Positions 1 through 42,363 of a stretch of DNA of 42,363 bases are shown here, piece after piece. The notes under the pieces are model-generated. The model saw only the letters and a list, made by a program, of their open reading frames with translations, did no database searches and was not told the origin of the DNA. How positions within the stretch are numbered: the stretch's first letter is position 1; the number at the start of each line of letters is the position of its first letter. Made by a program: the position numbers and the translations under genes. Source of the stretch: Acetivibrio sp. (GTDB lineage Bacteria; Bacillota; Clostridia; Lachnospirales; Lachnospiraceae); contig JBGSNZ010000012.1 in the NCBI GenBank assembly GCA_041739345.1, positions 1 through 42,363 of the forward strand, read 5' to 3'.

Positions 1-135
1 CCCCCCTCAAGATAAGATTTCCCATAGCAAAAGCTAGTAAGACCCCTGAAAGACCATCAGGTAGATAGGGCAGAGGTGGAAGTGCAGTAATGCATGTAGC
101 TGACTGTTACTAATAGGTCGAGGGCTTGACCAAAT
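1..135 (+). rRNA. rrl: 23S ribosomal RNA, 3' terminal fragment (domain VI)
   Basis: Recognisable homology to the 3' end of bacterial 23S rRNA: ...GATAGG..GTGGAAGTGCAGTAATGCATGTAGCTGACTGTTACTAATAGGTCGAGGGCTTGACC parallels the E. coli 23S terminus ...GATAGGCCGGGTGTGTAAGCGCAGCGATGCGTTGAGCTAACCGGTACTAATGAACCGTGAGGCTTAACC. The window starts inside the gene. Confidence 0.7.
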
Positions 136-219
136 GGTTCAGTTTTAGAAAAAATGGATGATGTTCTTACAATGTGTAGTTTTGAAGGTATATCCTTCTT
201 AGAAGCGAAAGTTTCTTAA

Positions 220-293
220 GGCCTAGTGGCTCAGTTGGTTAGAGCGCCGCCCTGTCACGGCGGAGGTCGTCGGTTCGAGTCCGATCTGGGTCG
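220..293 (+). tRNA. tRNA-Asp (anticodon GTC)
   Basis: Cloverleaf readable by eye. Acceptor GGCCTAG/CTGGGTC (2 GU pairs), D-arm GCTCAGTTGGTTAGAGC, anticodon stem CCGCC/GGCGG with loop CTGTCAC, T-arm GTCGG-TTCGAGT-CCGAT. Confidence 0.8.
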
Positions 294-340
294 TTTAAAC
301 AAGATAGTTTAGAAGTCTTTATTATATAGAGATTACCCAT

Positions 341-413
341 GGGATCTTAGCTCAGCTGGGAGAGCATCTGCCTTACAAGCAGAGGGTCACAGGTTCGAGC
401 CCTGTAGGTCCCA
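341..413 (+). tRNA. tRNA-Val (anticodon TAC)
   Basis: Acceptor GGGATCT/AGGTCCC, D-arm GCTCAGCTGGGAGAGC, anticodon loop CTTACAA, T-arm ACAGG-TTCGAGC-CCTGT. Confidence 0.8.
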
Positions 414-418
414 TTGTT

Positions 419-491
<73 letters not shown>

Positions 492-533
492 TTTACTTAT
501 AATATAAGTAAAAAGCAATTTAAAAATTCAAAT

Positions 534-615
534 GGATGGATTCCCGAGTGGCCAAAGGGGGCAGACTGTAAATCTGTTAGCTGCGCTTTCGAAGGTTCGA
601 ATCCTTCTCCATCCA
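534..615 (+). tRNA. tRNA-Tyr (anticodon GTA), class II with long variable arm
   Basis: Acceptor GGATGGA/TCCATCC perfect, anticodon loop CTGTAAA, long variable arm (TTAGCTGCGCTTTCG), T-arm GAAGG-TTCGAAT-CCTTC. Confidence 0.8.
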
Positions 616-651
616 TTTCAACAAGTAAATTGTTGAGTTAATAATTATTGT

Positions 652-725
<74 letters not shown>

Positions 726-730
726 TTTTT

Positions 731-804
<74 letters not shown>

Positions 805-829
805 TTGTGTTGTCTAAATTGGAAACTAC

Positions 830-902
830 GGGATATTAGCTCAGTTGGTAGAGCACTTGACTTTTAATCAAGTTGTCCGGGGTTCGAACCCCCGATGTCT
901 CA
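830..902 (+). tRNA. tRNA-Lys (anticodon TTT)
   Basis: Acceptor GGGATAT/ATGTCTC (2 GU pairs), D-arm GCTCAGTTGGTAGAGC, anticodon stem CTTGA/TCAAG with loop CTTTTAA, T-arm CGGGG-TTCGAAC-CCCCG. Confidence 0.75.
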
Positions 903-914
903 CTATTGGAACAG

Positions 915-3499: not shown

Positions 3500-4570
3500 A
3501 TGAAAGCATTTTTAATTTTAGAAGATGGCACCTCGTTTAGTGGAAACAGTATTGGGTCGACGCAGGATGCTATTTGTGAAATTGTTTTTAATACCTCGAT
3601 GACGGGATATCTTGAAATTCTAACCGATCCGTCGTATGCAGGACAAGCAGTTGTTATGACGTATCCACTTATTGGTAATTATGGTATTTGCCTTGAGGAT
3701 ATGGAATCTTTAAAACCTTGGCCGGAAGGCTTTATCGTCGGTGAACTATCTCGTATTTCTAGCAATTTTCGTAGTGAAATGTCTATTCAATCATTCTTAG
3801 AAAAAAATCTTATCCCTGGAATCAGTGGAATTGATACCCGTGCATTAACTAAAATTTTAAGAGAAAAAGGTACCATGAAAGGTATGATTACAACCAAGGA
3901 AGGTTTAAGCATAGAAGATGCCTTGGCTGAAATTAAAAATCATACTGCTAAGCAGGTAGTAGATGAAGTAACTTCAAAAGAAAAAGTTAGCATTAAAGGT
4001 GACGGCTTTAAAGTTGCAGTTCTTGACTTTGGTGCAAAATTGAATATTATTAACTCACTTATTAAAAGAGGATGTCAGGTGGAAATTTATCCGGCGCATA
4101 CAAAAGCTGAAGAGATTTTACGTGATAAACCAGATGGAATCATGCTTACAAATGGTCCTGGTGATCCAAAGAATTGTAAAGATATCATAGCGGAAGTTGG
4201 TAAATTATATGAAAGCAATGTCCCAATCTTTGCAATTTGCTTAGGACATCAGCTAATGGCACTTGCAACCGGAGCGGATACTAGAAAAATGAAATATGGG
4301 CACCGCGGAGCGAATCATCCGGTAAAAGACATGATGACAGGAAAAGTATATTTATCCTCTCAAAATCATGGATATGTTGTGAAAGACGGAACACTAAATG
4401 AATCAATTGCAGTTGCGAGCTTTATAAATGTAAACGATGGTTCAAATGAAGGTTTAGAATATGTGGGTAAGAAAATATATACAGTACAATTTCATCCAGA
4501 AGCCTGCCCGGGACCTGAAGATACCGGATTTTTATTTGACCGTTTTATAAACGAGATGAAGGGAGAATAA
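3500..4570 (+). CDS. carA: carbamoyl-phosphate synthase small (glutamine amidotransferase) subunit
   Basis: CarA N-domain plus class-I GATase catalytic triad context (ICLGHQLMALATGA ... FHPE). The start is taken at ATG 3500 (RBS AAAGGGG 9 nt upstream), not the ORF-track start 3380, which adds 40 non-conserved residues. Confidence 0.9.
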   Translation: MKAFLILEDGTSFSGNSIGSTQDAICEIVFNTSMTGYLEILTDPSYAGQAVVMTYPLIGNYGICLEDMESLKPWPEGFIVGELSRISSNFRSEMSIQSFLEKNLIPGISGIDTRALTKILREKGTMKGMITTKEGLSIEDALAEIKNHTAKQVVDEVTSKEKVSIKGDGFKVAVLDFGAKLNIINSLIKRGCQVEIYPAHTKAEEILRDKPDGIMLTNGPGDPKNCKDIIAEVGKLYESNVPIFAICLGHQLMALATGADTRKMKYGHRGANHPVKDMMTGKVYLSSQNHGYVVKDGTLNESIAVASFINVNDGSNEGLEYVGKKIYTVQFHPEACPGPEDTGFLFDRFINEMKGE

Positions 4571-24569: not shown

Positions 24570-25259
24570 TTGGAAGATTTTAAGATAAGATTTATAAACA
24601 ACTTTATCACGGATAATCGATGGAAATATCTGACGGATGGCCTTAAAACCACATTTTTAATTACTTTTTTTGCAGTATTAATTGGTATTTTGCTTGGATT
24701 TTTGGTAGCAATTATTCGTTCCACGGCTGACAAAAACGGTAATTTCAAAATAGCAAATGCAATTTGTAAGCTTTATTTAACGGTAATTCGAGGAACGCCG
24801 GTAATGATTCAATTACTTATCATTTACTATGTTATTTTTCAAAGCGTTGCAATCGATAAGCGAGTAGTAGCTATATTAGCATTTGGACTTAACTCTGGGG
24901 CGTATGTTGCAGAAATTGTAAGGTCTGGTATTATGGCAGTTGAAGAAGGGCAATTTGAGGCAGGAAGAAGTTTGGGATTTGGTTATGTTCAAACAATGTG
25001 GTATATTATCATGCCTCAGGCTTTTAAAAATGTACTGCCTGCATTAGGTAACGAGTTTATTGTGTTAGTAAAAGAGACCTCAATTTGTGGTTATATTGCA
25101 TTAACGGATTTAACACATGGCGGAAATACAATACGAAGCCAGACCTATGATGCGTTCATGCCCCTAATTGCAGTAGCACTTATCTATCTTTTAATAGTAT
25201 GTGCCCTTTCTTCCGGGGTATCTCGATTGGAAAGGAGACTTCGTACCAATGAGCGATAA
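24570..25259 (+). CDS. amino-acid ABC transporter permease (His/Glu/Gln/Arg/opine family)
   Basis: EAA-loop region ([20 protein letters not shown]) and polytopic TM profile. Confidence 0.85.
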
Positions 25260-25986
25260 TATTTTATTTGAAATTGAAAATTTATATAAAGACTTTGGCG
25301 AAGTTAAGGTCCTTAATAATATTAATACAACCATCTCGCAAGGAGAGGTAGTGGTAATAATTGGGCCATCCGGTTCCGGAAAATCGACTTTTCTTCGCTC
25401 CCTTAACTTACTAGAACAGCCAACCTCCGGAACTATCCGTTTTGAGGGGCTAGATATTACAGATAAAAAATCAAATATTAATAAATACCGCCAAAAAATA
25501 GGAATGGTATTTCAGCATTTTAATTTATTTCCACATAAGACAATTCTTGAAAATATGACACTTGCTCCTATGAAGCTTTTTAAGAAATCAAAAGAAGAAG
25601 CACAGAAAGAAGCAATGGAATTATTAAAGAGAGTTGGTTTGGAAGAAAAGGCAAATGCTTACCCTTCCCAGTTATCCGGTGGTCAAAAACAAAGAATAGC
25701 TATTGTACGTTCTCTTTGCATGAATCCAGACGTTATGCTCTTTGACGAACCAACGAGTGCACTCGATCCTGAAATGGTTGGAGAAGTTTTAAATGTTATG
25801 GAAGACCTAGCAAGAGGCGGAATGACAATGGTAATCGTAACACATGAAATGGGATTTGCTAAAAGAGTGGGAACTAGAATTATATTTATTGATGAGGGAG
25901 AAATTAAGGAAGAAAACCCTCCAATGGAGTTTTTTGAACATTCACAAAATCCACGTTTGAAAGAGTTCTTGTCGAAAGTGTTATAA
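25249..25986 (+). CDS. amino-acid ABC transporter ATP-binding protein
   Basis: Walker [11 protein letters not shown]-loop, signature LSGGQKQR, Walker [13 protein letters not shown]-loop. The start overlaps the permease stop. Confidence 0.9.
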
Positions 25987-25990
25987 ATTA

Positions 25991-26330
25991 AATTCTGGGT
26001 TAACTACGAAGGACGGACGCGAGTTTTTGTTGATAAGTGACGCCAGGAAAGGCTGATCAATTTTTATACTTTTTACAATTTACACGGCTCCCATGCTAGG
26101 ATTTTATATCAATCGTATAAGCATTCCACGTAATCTCTGGACGTCGAAAAAATAGCTCTAAGGAGCTATTTTTTCGACAGAGTTTACGTTCCATATACTT
26201 TAATGATATAAAATCCTAGCATGGGAGCCGTGTAAATTATACTATAGATTTATGAGCTCAGCCTTTCATGGCTGACTACGAGATACGGACTCGCTGATTT
26301 TCTAGCGTTTTATAAACCAAAACTAGAATT
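25991..26330 (+). repeat. type-1 foldback/MITE-like repeat, copy A (long imperfect palindrome with AATTCTGG termini)
   Basis: Begins AATTCTGGGTT 4 bp after the ABC ATPase stop and ends ..AACCAAAACTAGAATT (inverted terminus). Internally a ~300-bp imperfect hairpin centred on GCTCTAAGGAGCTAT. About 85-90% identical to rc(29388-29722) and to 42021-42222. Confidence 0.8.
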
Positions 26331-26706
26331 AAGAGTGAAGTGGTAAAAAGTCAAAGGTAGTTGTCATGTGATACACGGTCTTTGACTTTTTACTGTAAAC
26401 ATTCCAAACAACAGCGGCACCATTTTTCAAAATCAGCAAAAAAGCGGTGCTTATAATCTTCCTAATTCGAATGGAGGGGATGGCCTGTCCTTTGCATCAT
26501 TTAGCATATGAGATGGAAACTCTATTGAAAAAGAAGCTCCAAAGAGCTTCTTTTTCAATGATTAGAGGTTCTATCGAATGCTTATGCGGTTGATGCTAAG
26601 GACAGGCCATCCCCTCCATTCGAATGTCGAAACCATAAAAGCACCGTTTTCTTGCGTGACTTTCCCAAAACACGACGCGTACGTCATGAACAGTTAAACC
26701 AGAATT
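26331..26706 (-). repeat. type-2 foldback repeat, copy B (inverted relative to copy C)
   Basis: Ends ..AAACCAGAATT (rc AATTCTGGTTT). Contains a near-perfect nested palindrome TTCGAATGGAGGGGATGGCCTGTCCTT...AAGGACAGGCCATCCCCTCCATTCGAA with core GAAAAAGAAGCTCCAAAGAGCTTCTTTTTC. rc(B) aligns with 28934-29387. Confidence 0.75.
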
Positions 26707-26716
26707 CTTGAAATTA

Positions 26717-28753
26717 CTAGATGCTTTCGTTCGGAGTTTCTTCTTCTATTTTAAGACCGTCATCCATTTTTTCTTCTGTTTCACTAGGTGCGTTTACATT
26801 ATTTTCTACAACTTCGTCCGTTTTAATTGTTACGCCGAATTTTTCAAGAGTGATAAACTTTAGAAGCGTATCTATTATAGTTCCACTTCCGCCATCTTTG
26901 TTGTCTCCCATATTTACTACGGTCTTTGGAACGATATCAACCTTAGCACTCTTGATTGCATCCGATAATTTTTCTGAAACATCCTGAATAACACGATATT
27001 CTGCTCCGCCATAAGCCTTAACCTGAGCATCAATTGCACGGGCCTTAGCTAAACCTACATTAGATTCCTTAGATGCTTCCGCTTCACCTTCTAAGGTAAT
27101 TTTTAAGGAATTAGCTTTTGCAAGAGCAACAATCTGATTTGCTTCCTGCTCCGCTTTACTTGCTAATGCAGCACCGCTATTACGTTCGATTTCAATCTGA
27201 ATCTTTGAATTAGTAAGGAAGCTTTGCTGTTCCGCAACTGCCTCAGCTTCGCGGAGGGATTTTTCACTTTCCGCTGCAGATTGTTGTTTCTGGTAGGTTA
27301 CTTTCTTTTCTTCCGCAATCTGTCTTTCGCGTAATTGCGTTAGGATATTCTCAATCTGCTTATCTTCTACCGGTGATTTCGGAGTACCGATTAATACTTC
27401 TTCTAATTGAAGATTATATTTCTGGAATTTATCCCTCATCTCACCAAGGGATTTTTCACGGATTTCACTACGTTCCTGAATAAGTTCAATTAAGGTTTTT
27501 GTCTGAGCTACATCTTTGAAATATGCACTAACAAGTGGGTCAAGGGATTGGTTAACCAGCATATTAATATCACCAAAACGTTGGATGACCCAAGGAGCCT
27601 GCTTGTAATCAATATGCATAACAACAGATAGCGGTAAGGATGGCTCAAATGCATCCTTTGTAATGATATCTACTTCGGTCAAATTTTCATCATATTTATG
27701 AGTTCCGACTTCAGATTTGTTCCATTTTAAGATGATGTTCGTAGTTGGAACAAGAACGACTTTACCTGCATCCGTATTAAATGCATATTTACCAGGCATC
27801 AAAGGTTTTTCTAATACGCCCTTGCAGCCTTGACCAACCAGCTCGCCGTGTTTATAATCAGCACCCGTTGTATCCACACCCTCCGTACCAAAGAAGGAAA
27901 CAACAACGCCCACGAAACCGATAGGAACAACAGTCTTTGGTCTGAATTCTATGGTAGCAAACAACCGGTTAATGTAATAGGTACCATCCGTTAATACTTG
28001 TAACTGCTTACCTCTTTTTCCGCCAATTTCCAAGAATTTTTCTGGGTCTTGGAAACTTGCATGTTCCGCGCCCATATCAGGGGCAATGATTTCGCCTTGT
28101 TCAAGAGACTGTCCATCATGAATCGTTACGATGCCCATCAAATCACTATCCTGACTATTATTTCCCATGATTACTACCGGTCGAAAAGCAGTTCTATTAT
28201 TTAATGTTTCTTGCATGCTAGCCAACTCTTGTCTTTCATGTACATTACCACCACTAATAGCTTTAATATCGTTAGGGGTGATTACAATAAATTGTGCTAA
28301 GTTAATTGCATATGTACCTTCACGTAAGATGCCTCTTTGTGGACCTCTTTGACCGCCAGACTGTAAGAATCCTTTAACATCTTGAAAATTATTAGCTTCT
28401 TTTACTACCTTGCCAAGTGTTTGTACCGGGTTAAGTGGATGCCCGTCTTTTGCAAATACATAGGCAATTTGTCCTTGGGGTACAGTAATTAGTGGATACC
28501 TATGAATTTTGTACATTAACACAGATTTAAAATGAATACCACCACGAAGAACGTCAGGCTCATAACCAGCTTCCCCATTTAATGCAATGATAGAATCTTT
28601 CAAAGAACCTTTCATACTCCACCATTTTTCTACTACAGCTACTTCATTTGAATTAATAATCCTTAATCCTAAAATCTGAAAGATTAGCAAATATAGCCCT
28701 AATAACACTCCTAGTCCAATCAAAATGATTGGTAACATTGAAATAATTTCCAT
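26717..28753 (-). CDS. floT: flotillin-family (SPFH/band-7) membrane protein, FloT-like
   Basis: 678 aa. N-terminal TM hairpin, SPFH domain, long Ala/Glu/Gln-rich coiled-coil 'flotillin' region (...AEEKKVTYQKQQSAAESEKSLREAEAVAEQQ...EQEANQIVALAKANS...) and acidic C-terminal tail. RBS AAGAGGGA 6 nt before the ATG. Confidence 0.85.
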   Translation of the reverse strand: MEIISMLPIILIGLGVLLGLYLLIFQILGLRIINSNEVAVVEKWWSMKGSLKDSIIALNGEAGYEPDVLRGGIHFKSVLMYKIHRYPLITVPQGQIAYVFAKDGHPLNPVQTLGKVVKEANNFQDVKGFLQSGGQRGPQRGILREGTYAINLAQFIVITPNDIKAISGGNVHERQELASMQETLNNRTAFRPVVIMGNNSQDSDLMGIVTIHDGQSLEQGEIIAPDMGAEHASFQDPEKFLEIGGKRGKQLQVLTDGTYYINRLFATIEFRPKTVVPIGFVGVVVSFFGTEGVDTTGADYKHGELVGQGCKGVLEKPLMPGKYAFNTDAGKVVLVPTTNIILKWNKSEVGTHKYDENLTEVDIITKDAFEPSLPLSVVMHIDYKQAPWVIQRFGDINMLVNQSLDPLVSAYFKDVAQTKTLIELIQERSEIREKSLGEMRDKFQKYNLQLEEVLIGTPKSPVEDKQIENILTQLRERQIAEEKKVTYQKQQSAAESEKSLREAEAVAEQQSFLTNSKIQIEIERNSGAALASKAEQEANQIVALAKANSLKITLEGEAEASKESNVGLAKARAIDAQVKAYGGAEYRVIQDVSEKLSDAIKSAKVDIVPKTVVNMGDNKDGGSGTIIDTLLKFITLEKFGVTIKTDEVVENNVNAPSETEEKMDDGLKIEEETPNESI

Positions 28754-28933: not shown

Positions 28934-29387
28934 AATTCTGGTTTTCCTACGCAGGACGGACGTGGGGGCTTTTGGAAAGTCACGCAGGATGAGCGGTGAG
29001 TATATGGTTTTCGAAATTCGAATAGAGCACCGGGGCTGGTCTTAAAATCAGACGCATTAACCACTCGGCAGAACCTCTAAGCAAGGCAGAATGAGCTCTT
29101 TGGGAGCTCATTCTGCCTTGCTTAGAGGTTCTACCTCATAATGCTAAAATGCTTTTAAGACCAGCCCCGGTGCTCCATTCGAACTAGTAAGACTATGACC
29201 ACTGCGCATTTTGCTGGTTTTTGGTAAACGCCTCGCTGTTGTCTGAAATGTTAAAGTAAATACTGGAATTTATACGAAGATAGTAGTAAAAAGAGCAGGT
29301 GATGCCGTTGTTATTTGGTAATTTGCAGAAAAGAATTATTTATATCTCACTGGGTTTGCTTTTGACATTTTACCGAATGCTCCCAAA
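28934..29387 (+). repeat. type-2 foldback repeat, copy C
   Basis: Starts AATTCTGGTTTTCCTACGCAGGACGGACG (same 5' module as copy A). Nested palindrome CGAATAGAGCACCGGGGCTGGTCTTAAAA...TTTTAAGACCAGCCCCGGTGCTCCATTCGAA with core CCTCTAAGCAAGGCAGAATGAGCTCTTTGGGAGCTCATTCTGCCTTGCTTAGAGG. The distal part is homologous to rc of B. Confidence 0.75.
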
Positions 29388-29722
29388 TTCTGGTTTTTAC
29401 TATATGAAACGATTGTAAACCAGCGAGTCCGTATTTCGTAATCAGCCACGAAAGGCTGAGCTCATAATCTATCATTCAATTTACACGGCTCCCAGGCTAG
29501 GATTTTATATCATTAGAGCATATGGAACGTAAACTCTATCAAAAATCGGCTCCCAAGAGCCAATTTTTCGATTGCTTAGAGGTTACGTGGAATGCTTATG
29601 CGACTGATATAAAATCTTAGCCTGGGAGCCGTGTAAATTGTATAAAGACAAAACTGCTCAGGCTTTCCTGGCGTCACTTATCAACAAAAACTCGCGTCCG
29701 TCCTTCATAGTTAAACCGAAAT
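29388..29722 (-). repeat. type-1 foldback repeat, copy D (inverted copy of A)
   Basis: rc(D) aligns base-for-base with A over ~335 bp with scattered substitutions and small indels. Confidence 0.8.
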
Positions 29723-29800
29723 CTAAATCTTTACTTTGAGATAAAAATTGCGTATAATAAAATTAAATTTAACGGTTTGTGAGTATAGGGAGGATGAAAT

Positions 29801-29953
29801 ATGGATAAGTTATTTAGTGACGACGATTTGGCTGATTTATTGGCAGAGCTTGATACTGAAAATAACAAGGTACCGATTGAAGATGATCCGGAAATGGAAG
29901 CTGCCCAAAGAAGATACACCGAAATTATTAGGAAGCACAAGGATGACAAGTAG
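29801..29953 (+). CDS. small acidic hypothetical protein (50 aa)
   Basis: ATG 6 nt after a strong GGGAGGA RBS. Clean 50-codon ORF MDKLFSDDDLADLLAELDTENNKVPIEDDPEMEAAQRRYTEIIRKHKDDK. Below the 60-aa cutoff of the ORF track. No family recognised. Confidence 0.35.
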   Translation: MDKLFSDDDLADLLAELDTENNKVPIEDDPEMEAAQRRYTEIIRKHKDDK

Positions 29954-29988
29954 GAAATGCGAGATAAGTTGGAAATTCGGGAAACTTC

Positions 29989-30017
29989 TTGACAAATTAG
30001 ATTTCTGCGAATAAACT
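29989..30017 (+). promoter_or_regulatory. candidate sigma-A promoter for the metG leader
   Basis: TTGACA (29989-29994), 17 nt, TAAACT (30012-30017). Located ~50 nt before the first T-box stem. Confidence 0.35.
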
Positions 30018-30064
30018 AGTGCGTATATATTCCGCTTATGGATATAAGTGGATTAAAATATTTA

Positions 30065-30326
30065 AAATGCATGGAAAAGAAGAGTAGTCTGATAGGTTAC
30101 ATTACAGAGAATCCCGGTAGCTGAGAAGGGATATGGAGAATGCAGATGAAGATGGTCTTGGAGCAGAGTAACTGAGGTGTTATGATAAGCTTAGGTTACG
30201 ACGGTAGCACCCGTTATCGTGCAGACTGTTATGCAGTCATGGAGGCTTTTGTCGCAAGGCAAGGCAAATTAAAGTGGTACCACGAGATTATAGCTCGTCT
30301 TTAAGAGATTAAAGACGAGTTTTTTG
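30065..30326 (+). promoter_or_regulatory. T-box riboswitch leader (Met specifier) controlling metG
   Basis: Conserved T-box sequence AAATTAAAGTGGTACCACGAG (30266-30286) overlapping the antiterminator. Terminator CTCGTCTTT-AAGAGATT-AAAGACGAG plus T6 (30293-30326). Stem-I region with GA motifs (AGAGTAG / ACAGAGAAT) and AUG triplets in the specifier region (GGAGAATGCAGATGAAGATGG). Confidence 0.75.
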
Positions 30327-30364: not shown

Positions 30365-32329
30365 ATGGAAAAGAAAACGTATTATTTAACAACAGCCATT
30401 GCCTATACTTCAGGCAAACCACATATTGGAAACACTTATGAGGCAGTACTTGCAGACAGTATTGTAAGATTTAAACGATATCAAGGATATGATGTTCGTT
30501 TTCAGACAGGAACAGACGAACATGGACAAAAAATTGAATTAAAGGCAGCAGAAGCCGGAATTACGCCAAAGGAATTTGTTGACCAGGTTGCAGGAGAGAT
30601 CAAAAGCATATGGGACTTAATGAATACCTCTTATGATCATTTCATTCGTACTACCGATAAAGATCATGAAAAACAGGTTCAGAAAATTTTCCGCAAATTA
30701 TATGAAAATGGCGATATTTATAAAGGATATTATGAAGGAATGTATTGTACTCCTTGTGAATCGTTCTTTACTTCTTCCCAGCTTGTCGATGGAAAATGTC
30801 CTGATTGCGGAAGAGAATGTCAGCCTGCAAAAGAGGAAGCGTATTTCTTAAAACTAAGTAAGTATACAGACCGTTTAATTGAGCATATTAATACACACCC
30901 AGAATTTATTCAGCCAGAATCTAGAAAGAATGAAATGATGAATAACTTCCTTTTACCAGGTCTTCAGGATTTGTGTGTCTCCAGAACGACCTTTAAATGG
31001 GGAATTCCGGTTGACTTTGATGACAAACATGTTGTATATGTATGGCTTGATGCACTTAGTAACTATATTACTGGGCTGGGTTTTGATGTGGATGGAAATA
31101 ATGATGCACTTTATAAAAATTTCTGGCCTGCTGATTTACACTTAATTGGAAAAGATATTCTTCGATTCCATACGATTTATTGGCCGATTATGTTAATGGC
31201 ACTTGAAATTCCATTACCAAAACAGATATTTGGTCATCCATGGTTACTTCAAGGTGATGGAAAGATGAGCAAATCCAAGGGCAATGTACTTTATGCAGAT
31301 GATCTTGTATCTATCTTTGGGGTAGATGCGGTTCGTTACTTTGTGCTTCATGAGATGCCATTCGAAAATGATGGTGTTATTACCTGGGAGCTCATGGTAG
31401 AGAGAATGAATTCTGACCTTGCAAATACCTTGGGAAACTTGGTAAATCGTACTATCTCTATGTCGAATAAATACTTTGACGGCATTGTAAATAATAGAAA
31501 TGTAAAAGAATCCGTGGATGATGAATTAATTCAGCTAACATTTGAAACACCAAAAAAAGTAGAAGAAAAGATGGAAAAACTTCGTATTTCTGATGCCATT
31601 TCCGAGATCTTTACCCTATTCAAACGTTGCAATAAATATATTGACGAAACAATGCCTTGGGCGCTTGCAAAAGAGGAGGAGAAGAAAGCACGTTTAGAAA
31701 CTGTACTATATAACTTGGTAGAAAGTATTAGTGTGGGAGCTAGCTTGCTAGAAAGCTTTATGCCAGAAACCTCTGCAAAGATTTTGACACAAATTAATGA
31801 TACAAAGAGAGAGTTAACAGCCATGGATGCATATGGAAAATATGTATCGGGTAGCAAAGTAGTGGAAAAACCAGAGATTCTATTTGCAAGACTTGATATG
31901 GAAGAAGTACTAAAACAAGTAGAAGAAATGAAAGCAAAGCAGACGAATAATAGCAAAGAGGTAGAGCCAGTGATGGAGCCGGGTATTGATATAGAAGCAA
32001 AAGCTGAAATTGAATATGATGATTTTATGAAAATGCAGTTTCAGGTAGGCGAAATTCTTGCGTGCGAGGAAGTTCCAAAGTCTAAGAAATTATTATGCTC
32101 TAAAGTACGCGTTGGAAGTGAAATAAAGCAAATTGTTTCAGGTATCAAACAGTACTATAGCGCAGAAGAAATGGTAGGAAAAAAGGTTATGGTTTTAGTT
32201 AACCTAAAACCTGCCAAATTGGCTGGGGTATTATCCGAAGGAATGCTTTTATGCGCAGAAGATGCAGATGGTAATTTAGCGCTTATGACACCGGAAAAGC
32301 CAATGCCTGCAGGAGCAGAAATTTGCTAA
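30365..32329 (+). CDS. metG: methionine--tRNA ligase (with C-terminal tRNA-binding EMAP/Trbp111 domain)
   Basis: Class I aaRS: HIGN (HIGH variant, PHIGNTYEA), KMSKS, Zn knuckle CTPCES...CPDCGREC. C-terminal OB-fold tRNA-binding domain. Confidence 0.95.
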   Translation: MEKKTYYLTTAIAYTSGKPHIGNTYEAVLADSIVRFKRYQGYDVRFQTGTDEHGQKIELKAAEAGITPKEFVDQVAGEIKSIWDLMNTSYDHFIRTTDKDHEKQVQKIFRKLYENGDIYKGYYEGMYCTPCESFFTSSQLVDGKCPDCGRECQPAKEEAYFLKLSKYTDRLIEHINTHPEFIQPESRKNEMMNNFLLPGLQDLCVSRTTFKWGIPVDFDDKHVVYVWLDALSNYITGLGFDVDGNNDALYKNFWPADLHLIGKDILRFHTIYWPIMLMALEIPLPKQIFGHPWLLQGDGKMSKSKGNVLYADDLVSIFGVDAVRYFVLHEMPFENDGVITWELMVERMNSDLANTLGNLVNRTISMSNKYFDGIVNNRNVKESVDDELIQLTFETPKKVEEKMEKLRISDAISEIFTLFKRCNKYIDETMPWALAKEEEKKARLETVLYNLVESISVGASLLESFMPETSAKILTQINDTKRELTAMDAYGKYVSGSKVVEKPEILFARLDMEEVLKQVEEMKAKQTNNSKEVEPVMEPGIDIEAKAEIEYDDFMKMQFQVGEILACEEVPKSKKLLCSKVRVGSEIKQIVSGIKQYYSAEEMVGKKVMVLVNLKPAKLAGVLSEGMLLCAEDADGNLALMTPEKPMPAGAEIC

Positions 32330-42020: not shown

Positions 42021-42222
42021 AATTCTGGTGTAATGAATGACGGACGCGAGTCTTGGTTGTTAAGGGACGCCATAAAAGGCTGAGCATTTTTGTTTTCCGC
42101 CAATTTACACGGCTCCCATGGTGGGCTTTTATATCAATCGCATAGGAATTCCACGTAACCTCTAAGCAATCGAAAAATCGGTTCAAGGGAAGCCGATTTT
42201 TGATAGAGTTTGCGTTCCATAT
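42021..42222 (+). repeat. type-1 foldback repeat, copy E (truncated, lacks the distal right arm)
   Basis: AATTCTGGTG..GACGGACGCGAGT...GACGCC..AAAGGCTGAGC...CAATTTACACGGCTCCCATGG...TTTTATATCAATCGCATAGGAATTCCACGTAACCTCTAAGCAATCGAAAAATCGG..AGCCGATTTTTGATAGAGTTTGCGTTCCATATA is colinear with A and rc(D). Confidence 0.75.
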
Positions 42223-42284
42223 AAGGCTGCTGAAAAACTACTGTTTTTTATTGCTCTCAGCAAAGATAATTATCCCTAATAAAA

Positions 42285-42336
42285 AAATAAGAGTAAAAAT
42301 GGCTTCATTTTTCCCATTTTTACTCTTATTTTTTTC
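42285..42336. terminator. bidirectional rho-independent terminator
   Basis: AATAAGAGTAAAAATGG - loop - CCATTTTTACTCTTATT flanked by A7 and T7. Confidence 0.65.
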
Positions 42337-42363
42337 ATATTTTTATGTTTTTTTGGTTCATTC

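What the first reader, a model, noticed from the sequence alone, without database searches (positions are those of the whole stretch)
26060..26250. Each repeat is a ~300-nt imperfect hairpin; loop and stem variation between copies hints at a structured RNA
In copy A the arms ACAATTTACACGGCTCCCATGCTAGGATTTTATATCA / TGATATAAAATCCTAGCATGGGAGCCGTGTAAATT pair perfectly (35 bp), as do GTCGAAAAAATAGCT / AGCTATTTTTTCGAC around an AAGGAG loop. Copies D and E carry a different central stem (ATCGAAAAATTGGCTC / GAGCCGATTTTTGAT, loops CCAAGAG and AAGGGAA), so the inner hairpin changes between copies while the outer stems and the purine-rich apical loop are kept. Type-2 copies have the same logic (28-bp GC-rich outer stem, 18-bp inner stem, central AAAGAGC palindrome). 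If transcribed as 3' UTRs of the upstream genes, these elements would form very stable hairpins that could act as terminators or stabilisers. They could also be a family of small structured RNAs or protein-binding DNA cruciforms.
Basis: partly seen in the sequence, partly recalled or inferred. Interest (0 to 1): 0.55.

Follow-up and report, generated by a model that had tools for sequence, protein, structure and literature searches.

The report
Palindromic mobile repeat family, MITE-like
The long hairpin is real, but it is one copy of a lineage-specific family of non-coding palindromic repeats that look like small parasitic mobile elements lodged at gene ends, and nothing here marks it as a dedicated structured-RNA gene.

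Summary
The hairpin at 26060-26250 is real. It has a 38-bp outer stem and a 16-bp inner stem (RNA fold z = -15). It is the core of a ~340-nt palindromic repeat, T1, present three times in the window. A homologous repeat, T2, is present twice.

A related Lachnospiraceae MAG holds at least 25 loci with these repeats. T1 and T2 usually sit tail to tail around a terminator-like hairpin, forming a 0.7-0.9 kb unit. Its outer ends read AATTCTGGTTTAAC..GGACGGACGCG, are mostly preceded by TA, and often lie at the stop codon of an ordinary host gene.

Pairing is kept by many compensatory changes: 20 pairs in T1 and 32 in T2. Isolated stem mismatches show no G·U over A·C preference. Changes between 98-99% twin copies are uncompensated. 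One arm has been recopied from the other, and a 97%-identical strain has hairpin-centred deletions. No Rfam family matches.

Best reading: an undescribed MITE/REPIN-like non-autonomous element whose palindromy is a DNA-level property. It is transcribed passively in 3' UTRs.

An RNA role is not excluded. The sense strand folds 6-10% better, and the apical loop and internal bubble are conserved between T1 and T2. No transposase partner and no empty site were found.

The parts
25991..26330 (+). T1 copy A. A full-length ~340-nt palindromic repeat bounded by AATTCTGG and CTAGAATT. It starts 4 nt after the stop codon of the ABC-transporter ATPase gene (25201-25986).
26074..26111 (+). Left arm of the long outer stem of copy A. 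It pairs with 26204-26241.
   Evidence: I8: 38 nt, 97% complementary
26204..26241 (+). Right arm of the long outer stem of copy A.
   Evidence: I8
26143..26178 (+). Apical hairpin of copy A: a 16-bp stem around a TAAG loop. This stem varies between copies by compensatory changes. The top of the stem (GCTC/GAGC) and the loop (TTANGG) are conserved between T1 and T2.
26112..26142 (+). Left side of the conserved asymmetric internal region: GTATA pairs with TATAC, then the unpaired AAGCATTCC bubble, then the ACGTAATCTCTG stem. At the stem's mismatch position other copies have the conserved C·T (AACCTC/GAGTTT); copy A has T·T.
26342..26394 (.). Spacer hairpin between T1 and T2: A-tract, stem, T-tract (GGTAAAAAGTCAAAG..CTTTGACTTTTTAC). 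It looks like a bidirectional terminator and is conserved at the start of the spacer in most composites.
   Evidence: -22.3 kcal/mol in the window; intact in L021, L027, L030, L031
26383..26706 (-). T2 copy, a divergent variant. Its left end (AATTCTGG on the minus strand) lies 10 nt after the stop codon of the SPFH/flotillin gene (26717-28753, minus strand). Together with copy A it forms composite 1 (25991-26706).
   Evidence: (I9)
28934..29270 (+). T2 copy B, bounded by AATTCTGG and CTGGAATT. In the inner arms 29067-29098 and 29104-29135, one arm is a 97% copy of the other, including an extra 5 nt (foldback copying).
   Evidence: (I6, I12); core deleted in strain contig L062
29386..29723 (-). 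T1 copy D. It forms composite 2 with T2 copy B (28934-29723), between the divergently transcribed SPFH gene and the metS leader region.
   Evidence: (I7)
42021..42222 (+). T1 copy E, positions 1-210 only. It starts 13 nt after the stop codon of a TetR-family gene and is cut at the motif TTCCATAT by an insertion sequence.
42223..42363 (-). End of an IS1182-like insertion sequence (AAGGCTGCTGAAAAACTACTG...) that interrupts T1 copy E and runs off the window.

Best explanation
The finding is one member of an undescribed, lineage-restricted family of non-coding, non-autonomous mobile palindromic repeats, in the MITE/REPIN sense.

**Anatomy**
- Two homologous ~340-nt modules, T1 and T2, are each almost entirely a foldback.
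- They normally sit tail to tail around a short terminator-like hairpin, giving a 0.7-0.9 kb unit.
- The two outer ends of that unit are inverted repeats (AATTCTGGTTTAAC..GGACGGACGCG), usually preceded by TA.

**Mechanism**
- Shown: the whole unit has been copied to many unrelated intergenic sites.
- Inferred: an enzyme supplied in trans copies it.
- Inferred: surviving insertions are those that harm nothing. They sit directly at or just after stop codons, where TA plus the element's first A or G restores a stop. Or they sit just upstream of promoters.
- Inferred: the hairpin belongs to the propagating DNA lineage. Pairing is kept on the internal branches of the family, and copies decay without compensation once inserted.
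- Shown: arms can be recopied from each other, and the hairpin provokes deletions.
- Inferred: when an upstream gene reads into a copy, the RNA necessarily folds into a long hairpin in the 3' UTR. That is most likely a side effect, not the reason the structure is conserved.
For: - **Copy number and spread.** At least 21 full T1 and 12 full T2 copies lie at unrelated loci in MAG 'Lachnoclostridium sp. UBA5725', besides five copies in the window. Elsewhere there are only two metagenome contigs and nothing in viral contigs, plasmids or phages.
- **Sharp ends.** Twin composites at different loci are 98-99.4% identical, and homology starts exactly at AAATTCTGG. Both modules carry terminal inverted repeats. 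TA precedes AATTCTGG at 21 of 33 ends.
- **Fixed architecture.** T1(+) - spacer - T2(-) recurs with a conserved spacer start. Even 'solitary' L015 has a T2 remnant.
- **No coding capacity**.
- **Ordinary flanking genes.** They include rplL, yajC, rpiB, signal peptidase, an ABC ATPase, SPFH and TetR.
- **Covariation.** 20 of 91 pairs in T1 (0/500 shuffles reach this) and 32 of 99 pairs in T2.
- **No RNA signature.** G·T is about as frequent as A·C among isolated stem mismatches. Differences between twin copies are uncompensated.
- **DNA-level events.** One arm has been recopied from the other. A 97%-identical strain has hairpin-centred deletions and sequence replacement.
- **Insertions into the loops.** Two other mobile elements have inserted repeatedly, one into the internal bubble and one into the apical loop.
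- **No Rfam family**.
- **Fit to published descriptions.** Bacterial MITEs are small and AT-rich, with TIRs, TA at the termini, stable stem-loop transcripts and enrichment downstream of genes (PMC10969869, PMC2229807, PMC3049150). REPINs have conserved inverted arms and a compensating spacer (PMC3116915).
Against: - No autonomous partner was found. No transposase gene carries the same termini in the window or in about 200 kb of fetched loci.
- No empty site was recovered, so the target-site duplication and mobility are inferred from flanks and twin copies only.
- The composite (0.7-0.9 kb) and each module (~340 nt, nearly all foldback) are large for a bacterial MITE.
- Interior blocks are more conserved than the termini. 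For T1 this is inflated, because copies were fished with a 17-mer from the arm.
- The apical loop TTANGG, the bubble AAACATTC and a C·T mismatch are conserved between T1 and T2 although their long stems differ. The sense strand folds better than the antisense in 30 of 33 copies. Both facts would also suit a functional folded single strand.
Confidence: 0.65

Rival explanations
1. Functional RNA hairpin. The sense-strand transcript of T1 or T2, co-transcribed with the upstream gene, is selected as a 3'-UTR element. It could be a barrier to 3' exonucleases, an RNase III site or a terminator helper. That selection would maintain pairing and the conserved loops.
For: - Fourteen left ends lie within 14 nt of a co-oriented stop codon, so the upstream gene must read into them.
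- The sense RNA is more stable than the antisense in 18/21 T1 and 12/12 T2 copies, by a mean of 9 and 17 kcal/mol.
- In a symmetric self-alignment of the consensus, G·T far outnumbers A·C in the outer region.
- The apical loop and bubble are conserved across T1 and T2 while the stems covary.
- There is precedent: Correia RNA is cut by RNase III, and ERIC changes mRNA decay in an orientation-dependent way (PMC10969869, PMC2229807).
Against: - There is no G·U preference in well-defined stems. When pairs predicted for either strand are pooled, the counts are similar.
- Twin-copy changes are uncompensated and mostly A·C.
- About a third of the ends face promoters rather than gene ends.
- The big hairpin has no conserved U-tract.
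- A 97%-identical strain has lost the hairpin cores at both T2 sites flanking the SPFH gene.
- No Rfam family matches.
Confidence: 0.15
2. REPIN-like element moved as folded single-stranded DNA. A single-copy HUH/Y1 (RAYT- or IS200-like) enzyme would recognise the folded hairpin, including its conserved bubble, mismatch and loop, on one strand and copy it. Pairing would then be selected directly for transposition.
For: - The architecture matches REPINs: conserved inverted arms and a spacer that keeps pairing by compensatory change (PMC3116915).
- Unpaired motifs are conserved between T1 and T2.
- Folding is strand-asymmetric.
- Pairing is maintained on internal branches of the family but not after insertion.
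Against: - The modules have clear terminal inverted repeats with TA flanks, which HUH-moved elements typically lack.
- The arms are not themselves short REP palindromes.
- The size is 3-4 times that of a REPIN.
- No Y1/HUH gene appeared in the window or next to any fetched copy.
Confidence: 0.15
3. Protein-binding DNA cruciform or chromosome-organising site with a host function.
For: - The long perfect arms and a 16-bp central palindrome with a 4-nt loop could extrude as a cruciform.
- Two unrelated mobile elements insert into the predicted loops, which suggests the loops are exposed in DNA.
Against: - The family is restricted to one lineage.
- Copies decay, are deleted and are interrupted.
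- No binding protein or regular spacing is evident.
Confidence: 0.03

Closest known systems
Correia/NEMIS elements of Neisseria and ERIC/IRU of enterobacteria (bacterial MITEs)
   Same: They are non-coding, multi-copy and intergenic, with terminal inverted repeats and TA at the termini. Their transcripts fold end to end into a long stem-loop. They are often co-transcribed with neighbouring genes, where they can affect RNA processing (PMC2229807, PMC10969869).
   Different: Those elements are 100-160 bp. These modules are ~340 nt and usually travel as a two-module 0.7-0.9 kb unit with a central terminator-like hairpin. No IHF site or outward promoter was seen. Sequences are unrelated. No TSD or parent IS was shown here.
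Pneumococcal RUP, BOX and SPRITE repeats
   Same: The host is a Firmicute. The repeats are AT-rich and highly structured, enriched downstream of genes and between convergent genes, clustered, and inserted into one another. SPRITE lies close to CDS 3' ends and resembles a terminator (PMC3049150). RUP uses TA targets and IS630-like TIRs (PMC2229807).
   Different: Sequences are unrelated and these elements are much longer. Here the terminator-like part is a separate central module. The link to an IS630-type transposase is only suggested by the TA flanks.
REPINs (REP doublets forming hairpins) mobilised by RAYTs
   Same: Two highly conserved inverted segments are separated by a less conserved spacer whose pairing is kept by compensatory changes. 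The hairpin is predicted in ssDNA or mRNA. The doublet, not the singlet, is the replicative unit (PMC3116915).
   Different: REPINs are ~70-110 nt, lack TIRs and TSDs, and are tied to a flanking single-copy RAYT gene. No such gene was found here, and these elements have TIRs.
Caulobacter/Brucella CIR repeats
   Same: The RNA model has two long inverted-repeat arms joined by a linker, and a motif is exposed in a terminal loop (PMC2229807).
   Different: CIR lacks TIRs, is far smaller, carries a GANTC methylation motif and occurs in Alphaproteobacteria. There is no sequence relation.

Membership tests
Bacterial MITE | Small non-coding element, typically <500 bp | tested here: met
   T1 is ~335-340 nt and T2 is ~335-340 nt. 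The longest stop-free stretches are 29-76 codons and are not conserved. The usual T1+T2 composite is 0.7-0.9 kb, above the typical size.
Bacterial MITE | Terminal inverted repeats | tested here: met
   T1 has AATTCTGGTTT at one end and AAACCAGAATT at the other. T2 has AATTCTGG and CAGAATT. The outer ends of the composite share ~32 nt, plus 17 nt more in one subfamily.
Bacterial MITE | Target-site duplication flanking the element | tested here: inconclusive
   TA precedes AATTCTGG at 21 of 33 ends, and T2 right ends are followed by TA. No empty site was found to prove duplication. In some copies the flanks are inverted rather than direct repeats.
Bacterial MITE | Many dispersed copies in intergenic DNA, with evidence of recent copying | tested here: met
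   At least 25 loci in one MAG plus five copies in the window. Twin copies are 98-99.4% identical with unrelated flanks.
Bacterial MITE | A related autonomous IS sharing the TIRs | tested here: not met
   None occurs in the 42-kb window or the fetched loci.
Bacterial MITE | Transcript predicted to form a stable stem-loop | tested here: met
   z = -14 to -15. Mean energy is -146 kcal/mol for T1 and -160 kcal/mol for T2.
REPIN/RAYT system | Two conserved inverted segments with a compensating spacer that forms a hairpin | tested here: met
REPIN/RAYT system | Association with a REP-flanked RAYT (Y1 HUH) gene | not testable with these tools
   No Y1/HUH domain occurs among the window ORFs or the ORFs next to copies.
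REPIN/RAYT system | Short (~20-40 nt) REP palindromes as arms, total length ~70-110 nt, no TIRs | tested here: not met
   The arms are 36 nt and not self-palindromic, the element is ~340 nt, and TIRs are present.
Curated structured RNA family (Rfam) | Match to a covariance model at the gathering score | tested here: not met
   No hit at gathering. Below threshold there are only generic miRNA-precursor hairpin models.
Structured RNA under RNA-level selection | G·U tolerated over A·C in stems (strand-specific covariation) | tested here: inconclusive
   Well-paired stems show no bias (11 vs 16 in T1; 13 vs 13 in T2). Twin-copy changes are mostly A·C. Yet the sense strand folds 6-10% better in 30 of 33 copies.
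Intrinsic (Rho-independent) terminator | G+C-rich stem directly followed by a U-tract | tested here: not met
   The T1 and T2 hairpins have no conserved U-tract. Only the separate spacer hairpin has the A-tract/stem/T-tract form, and it is intact in only about half the composites.

The most novel reading that the evidence does not exclude
The 0.7-0.9 kb T1-terminator-T2 unit may be a mobile element whose spread, or whose retention by the host, depends on a folded single strand. It would have covarying stems around a conserved apical loop (TTANGG), a conserved pyrimidine bubble and a conserved C·T mismatch.

Two forms of this reading remain open:
- A giant REPIN-like system in Firmicutes, moved as hairpin ssDNA.
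- A portable '3'-UTR plus terminator cassette' that docks at stop codons and is kept because its RNA hairpin protects or processes the upstream mRNA.
Probability: 0.2. Interest if true: 0.55.

Novelty: new member of a known kind. Interest (0 to 1): 0.3.

Why it matters
The family adds an unusually large, two-module foldback repeat to the short list of Firmicute MITE-like elements.

It gives a clean example of how compensatory change in a palindromic repeat can mimic RNA covariation. Anyone screening genomes for structured RNAs needs the control used here: compare G·U with A·C mismatches, and compare twin copies.

The elements also break assemblies, attract other insertion sequences into their loops, and rewrite the 3' UTRs of housekeeping genes such as rplL and yajC. 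They therefore matter for annotation and for reading transcriptomes of this lineage. If the hairpin proved to be the recognised substrate for transposition, it would extend hairpin-dependent mobilisation to much larger elements.

Tried and rejected
- **Rfam.** Searches at gathering and at E <= 10 gave only generic hairpin (miRNA-precursor) models.
- **Collection scans with the 17-mer from the T1 arm.**
  - Genome collection: real copies in only one MAG.
  - Metagenome collection: two real contigs among 28 chance hits.
  - Viral contigs: none.
- **Plasmid and phage BLAST** with the composite: no match.
- **Composite transposon around the SPFH gene:** rejected. The gene lies outside both elements, between a right-type and a left-type boundary, and it is an ordinary flotillin-like gene.
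- **Empty-site hunt.**
  - Exact-protein look-ups returned only repeat-truncated Logan contigs and one 97% strain contig that carries the elements at the same sites.
  - The ABC-ATPase and TetR look-ups found nothing.
  - An 84%-identical homologue in another genus has no synteny.
- **Strand asymmetry from a consensus self-alignment** (G·T 18, A·C 1): not relied on. It did not hold when pairs from both strand folds were pooled, or for mismatches flanked by three Watson-Crick pairs.
- **Selection for a stop codon at the element border:** weak. The border triplets are TAA, TAG or TGA at 27 of 33 ends. Among single-base variants of TAA, six keep a stop and five (four TTA, one AAA) do not.
- **Mini-ORF reading of the extended flank AAGGGG(A/T/G)TGTCGCAC-TAA** (start-codon-like ATG/GTG/TTG variation): noted but not pursued, as it occurs at only eight ends in four loci.
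- **Type I toxin or small-protein coding:** rejected. There is no conserved ORF or RBS.
- **A third related family:** none found with nhmmer.

Full report

Yes. In copy A the arms 26074-26111 and 26204-26241 are 38 nt long, 97% complementary and 92 nt apart (I8). The apex is a 16-bp stem, GTCGAAAAAATAGCTC / GAGCTATTTTTTCGAC, around a 4-nt TAAG loop.

The reported span folds as RNA at -93.7 kcal/mol, against -30.7 +/- 4.1 for dinucleotide shuffles (z = -15.3). The whole element gives -142 kcal/mol as RNA (z = -14.2) and -79.5 kcal/mol as ssDNA (z = -14.0).

**2. What the element is**

The hairpin is the core of a ~340-nt repeat that I call T1. Copy A, defined by its ends, runs 25991-26330. The window has three T1 copies:
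- 25991-26330, plus strand.
- 29386-29723, minus strand.
- 42021-42222, plus strand, truncated.

It also has two copies of a second repeat, T2, at 26383-26706 (minus strand) and 28934-29270 (plus strand). There are no further copies.

T1 and T2 are homologous over their full length and in the same orientation: the T1 HMM hits T2 at E = 1e-25 and 1e-18. They share several features:
- The left terminus AATTCTGGTTTAAC..GGACGGACGCG.
- An internal asymmetric region: ATCAGnCGCATnAAACATTC on the left and CATAwTGCTmAAATGAT on the right.
- A stem AACCTCTAA / TAGAGTTT with a conserved C·T mismatch.
- The apex GCTC-TTANGG-GAGC.

Their long stems have unrelated sequences.

**3. Relatives elsewhere**

A 17-mer from the T1 arm found real copies in the species-representative genome collection only in the MAG 'Lachnoclostridium sp. 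UBA5725', at about 25 loci. The metagenome scan gave two real contigs (L039, L043) among 28 hits. Viral contigs, plasmids and phages gave nothing.

The window is itself a 42,363-nt NCBI contig. The closest named relatives of its SPFH protein are Herbinix, Mobilitalea and Anaerocolumna, at 79-84% identity. None of the fetched loci overlaps the window outside the repeats.

In all, 21 full T1 and 12 full T2 copies were aligned. Pairwise identity among T1 copies has a median of 82%. Two young clusters at unlinked loci reach 98% (L007, L009, L023) and 99.4% (L021, L031). In the first cluster, homology with the flanks begins exactly at AAATTCTGG.

**4. The replicative unit is a composite**

T1(+) is followed by T2(-) in fixed tail-to-tail orientation in the window (twice) and in most loci. 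A seemingly solitary T1 in L015 has a T2 remnant beside it.

The spacer begins with a conserved GGTAAAAAGTCAAAGGCAG. In about half of the composites this forms an A-tract/stem/T-tract hairpin that looks like a bidirectional terminator. Examples are window 26342-26394 (-22.3 kcal/mol) and L021, L027, L030 and L031. Twin copies share the whole composite, spacer included.

The two outer ends of the composite are therefore ~32-nt inverted repeats. A subfamily extends them by AAGGGGnTGTCGCAC. TA precedes AATTCTGG at 21 of 33 ends. T2 right ends are followed by TA.

The elements have no conserved reading frame.

**5. Where copies sit**

Of 33 left ends, 21 have a co-oriented ORF of at least 80 codons ending within 90 nt. 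Fourteen of these are within 14 nt. In five, the ORF's stop codon is exactly the TAA or TAG triplet in front of ATTCTGG.

In the window, the gap between the stop codon and the AATTCTGG repeat is 4 nt for the ABC ATPase gene, 10 nt for the SPFH gene and 13 nt for the TetR gene.

The upstream genes are ordinary: rplL, yajC, rpiB, signal peptidase, a GNAT, GerA, a TetR and an SbcC-like protein. The other ends lie mostly about 60-100 nt upstream of divergent start codons, which leaves just enough room for a promoter.

This resembles the enrichment of pneumococcal repeats downstream of genes, which was interpreted there as tolerance of parasitic insertions (PMC3049150). My inference is that insertion at the TA of a stop codon is harmless because the element's first base (A or G) restores TAA or TAG. 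A unit that carries its own terminator can also replace the host terminator.

**6. RNA structure or DNA palindrome?**

Pairing is clearly maintained.
- T1: 97.2% of cells are paired over 91 pairs. Twenty pairs have changes on both sides, against 8.5 +/- 1.6 in shuffles (0/500). Slid controls pair at 29-41%.
- T2: 32 of 99 pairs have compensatory changes, with up to four pair types per position.

The strand-specific signature expected of an RNA is missing where the pairing is unambiguous. I counted isolated mismatches flanked by three Watson-Crick pairs on each side:
- T1: G·T 11 against A·C 16.
- T2: G·T 13 against A·C 13.

Pooling pairs predicted from either strand gives similar numbers of columns. 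Between twin copies, all six differences at paired positions are uncompensated, and four of them are A·C.

So pairing is preserved along the internal branches of the family, the propagating lineages. It decays neutrally after insertion.

DNA-level events are directly visible:
- In T2 copy B, the arm 29104-29135 is a 97% complement of 29067-29098, including 5 nt that most other copies lack. L030 shows the same pattern.
- In a 97%-identical strain contig (L062), the core of that copy (window 28987-29204) is deleted between CGCA microhomologies. The other T2 has lost its inner hairpin and has a different sequence.

Expression was not testable.

**7. What still speaks for a folded single strand**

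- The sense strand, the one co-oriented with the abutting gene, folds better than the antisense. This holds in 18/21 T1 copies (mean 9 kcal/mol) and 12/12 T2 copies (mean 17 kcal/mol). The copies are not independent, and the strand is simply richer in G than in C.
- Unpaired motifs are conserved between T1 and T2 while the stems drift: the apical loop, the bubble and the C·T mismatch.
- In T2, which was not fished by its own sequence, interior blocks are 86-92% identical. The covarying segments are 58-70% and the termini about 59-69%.
- The 96% identity of the T1 arms is partly an ascertainment effect of the 17-mer search.

These features fit a REPIN-like element recognised as hairpin ssDNA (PMC3116915). 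They also fit an RNA role like that of Correia or ERIC transcripts (PMC10969869, PMC2229807). I cannot exclude either.

**8. Terminator idea**

The big hairpins have no conserved U-tract. Only some inner-stem subfamilies have A/T-tracts. The terminator-like structure is the separate spacer hairpin.

**9. Comparison with known systems**

The family meets most defining features of bacterial MITEs: non-coding, TIRs, TA at the termini, many dispersed copies, recent twin copies and stable stem-loop transcripts. A TSD and a parent IS are unproven, and the size is unusual.

It resembles REPINs in logic but fails on size, on arm structure and on the presence of TIRs, and no RAYT was seen. It matches no Rfam family.

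I file it as a new member of the known kind 'small non-autonomous palindromic repeats'. I give this general reading a confidence of 0.65. Within it, I cannot tell whether movement is of the DDE/TIR type or depends on a folded hairpin.

**10. Other things seen**

An IS1182-like insertion sequence sits after the T1 bubble motif TTCCATAT. Its transposase has DUF772 and DDE_Tnp_1_6 domains, its ends read AAGGCTGCTGAAAAA, and it makes an 8-bp TSD. It occupies this site in window copy E, L022, L029 and L039, and has left a 31-nt remnant in L016.

A second element, with the end TGATGTGACCCCCATAAGTTAGAC, sits in the apical loop of three T1 copies.

The repeated use of the two predicted single-stranded regions is a hint that the hairpin forms in DNA in vivo. 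That is an inference only.

Noticed in passing
window 42223-42363; L039 371-2061; L029 3725-3747; L022 7793-7817; L016 about 4063-4093: An IS1182-like insertion sequence sits at the same T1 site in at least four independent copies, in both orientations. It has a 495-aa transposase with DUF772 and DDE_Tnp_1_6 domains and ends reading AAGGCTGCTGAAAAA. The site is the motif TTCCATAT, duplicated as an 8-bp TSD in L039. A 31-nt remnant remains in L016. This looks like a site-specific preference for the hairpin's internal bubble.
   Followed up: partly
L003 1-89; L014 1-26; L010 1-24: A second, unidentified element is inserted in the apical loop of three T1 copies, between CTCTTAAG and GGGAG. Its end reads TGATGTGACCCCCATAAGTTAGAC and it has a subterminal hairpin, ATCGCGAAGTAG-TTTTT-ACTGCTTCGCGAT. 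Contigs break there. There is no Rfam match.
   Followed up: partly
L062 (JGI Ga0134288_1010515) against window 26383-26706 and 28934-29270: A 97%-identical strain keeps both T2 sites. One T2 lacks the central ~218 nt. The other lacks its inner hairpin and has a consensus-like rather than window-like sequence. The repeats therefore turn over much faster than their flanks, by deletion and by gene conversion or replacement.
   Followed up: yes
L021, L025, L026 and L031: 17 nt outside both ends of the composites: One subfamily has an extra inverted flank, AAGGGG(A/T/G)TGTCGCAC, followed by TAA. It reads like an RBS plus a three-codon mini-ORF (ATG/GTG/TTG TCG CAC TAA). It could equally be the split arms of a hairpin into which the unit inserted. 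Its meaning is unknown.
   Followed up: no
window 30063-30305: A T-box leader (114 bits) lies upstream of the methionyl-tRNA synthetase gene (30365-32329). T1 copy D ends a few nt upstream of a promoter-like site at 29730-29758. An 88-aa ORF without a Pfam match (29748-30014) lies in between.
   Followed up: no
window 1-903: The window starts with the 3' end of a 23S rRNA gene, followed by seven tRNA genes: Asp, Val, Thr, Tyr, Met, Phe and Lys. This part of the chromosome is ordinary housekeeping DNA.
   Followed up: no
L016 3364-3936: In one composite the spacer between T2 and T1 is about 600 nt and holds a 96-aa ORF with no Pfam match. This suggests the unit can carry extra DNA.
   Followed up: no
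L060 and L061 (Logan assemblies of SRR28170468 and SRR28170467): Short-read assemblies of the same organism break inside the T2 copies on both sides of the SPFH gene. The repeats fragment assemblies of this lineage.
   Followed up: partly
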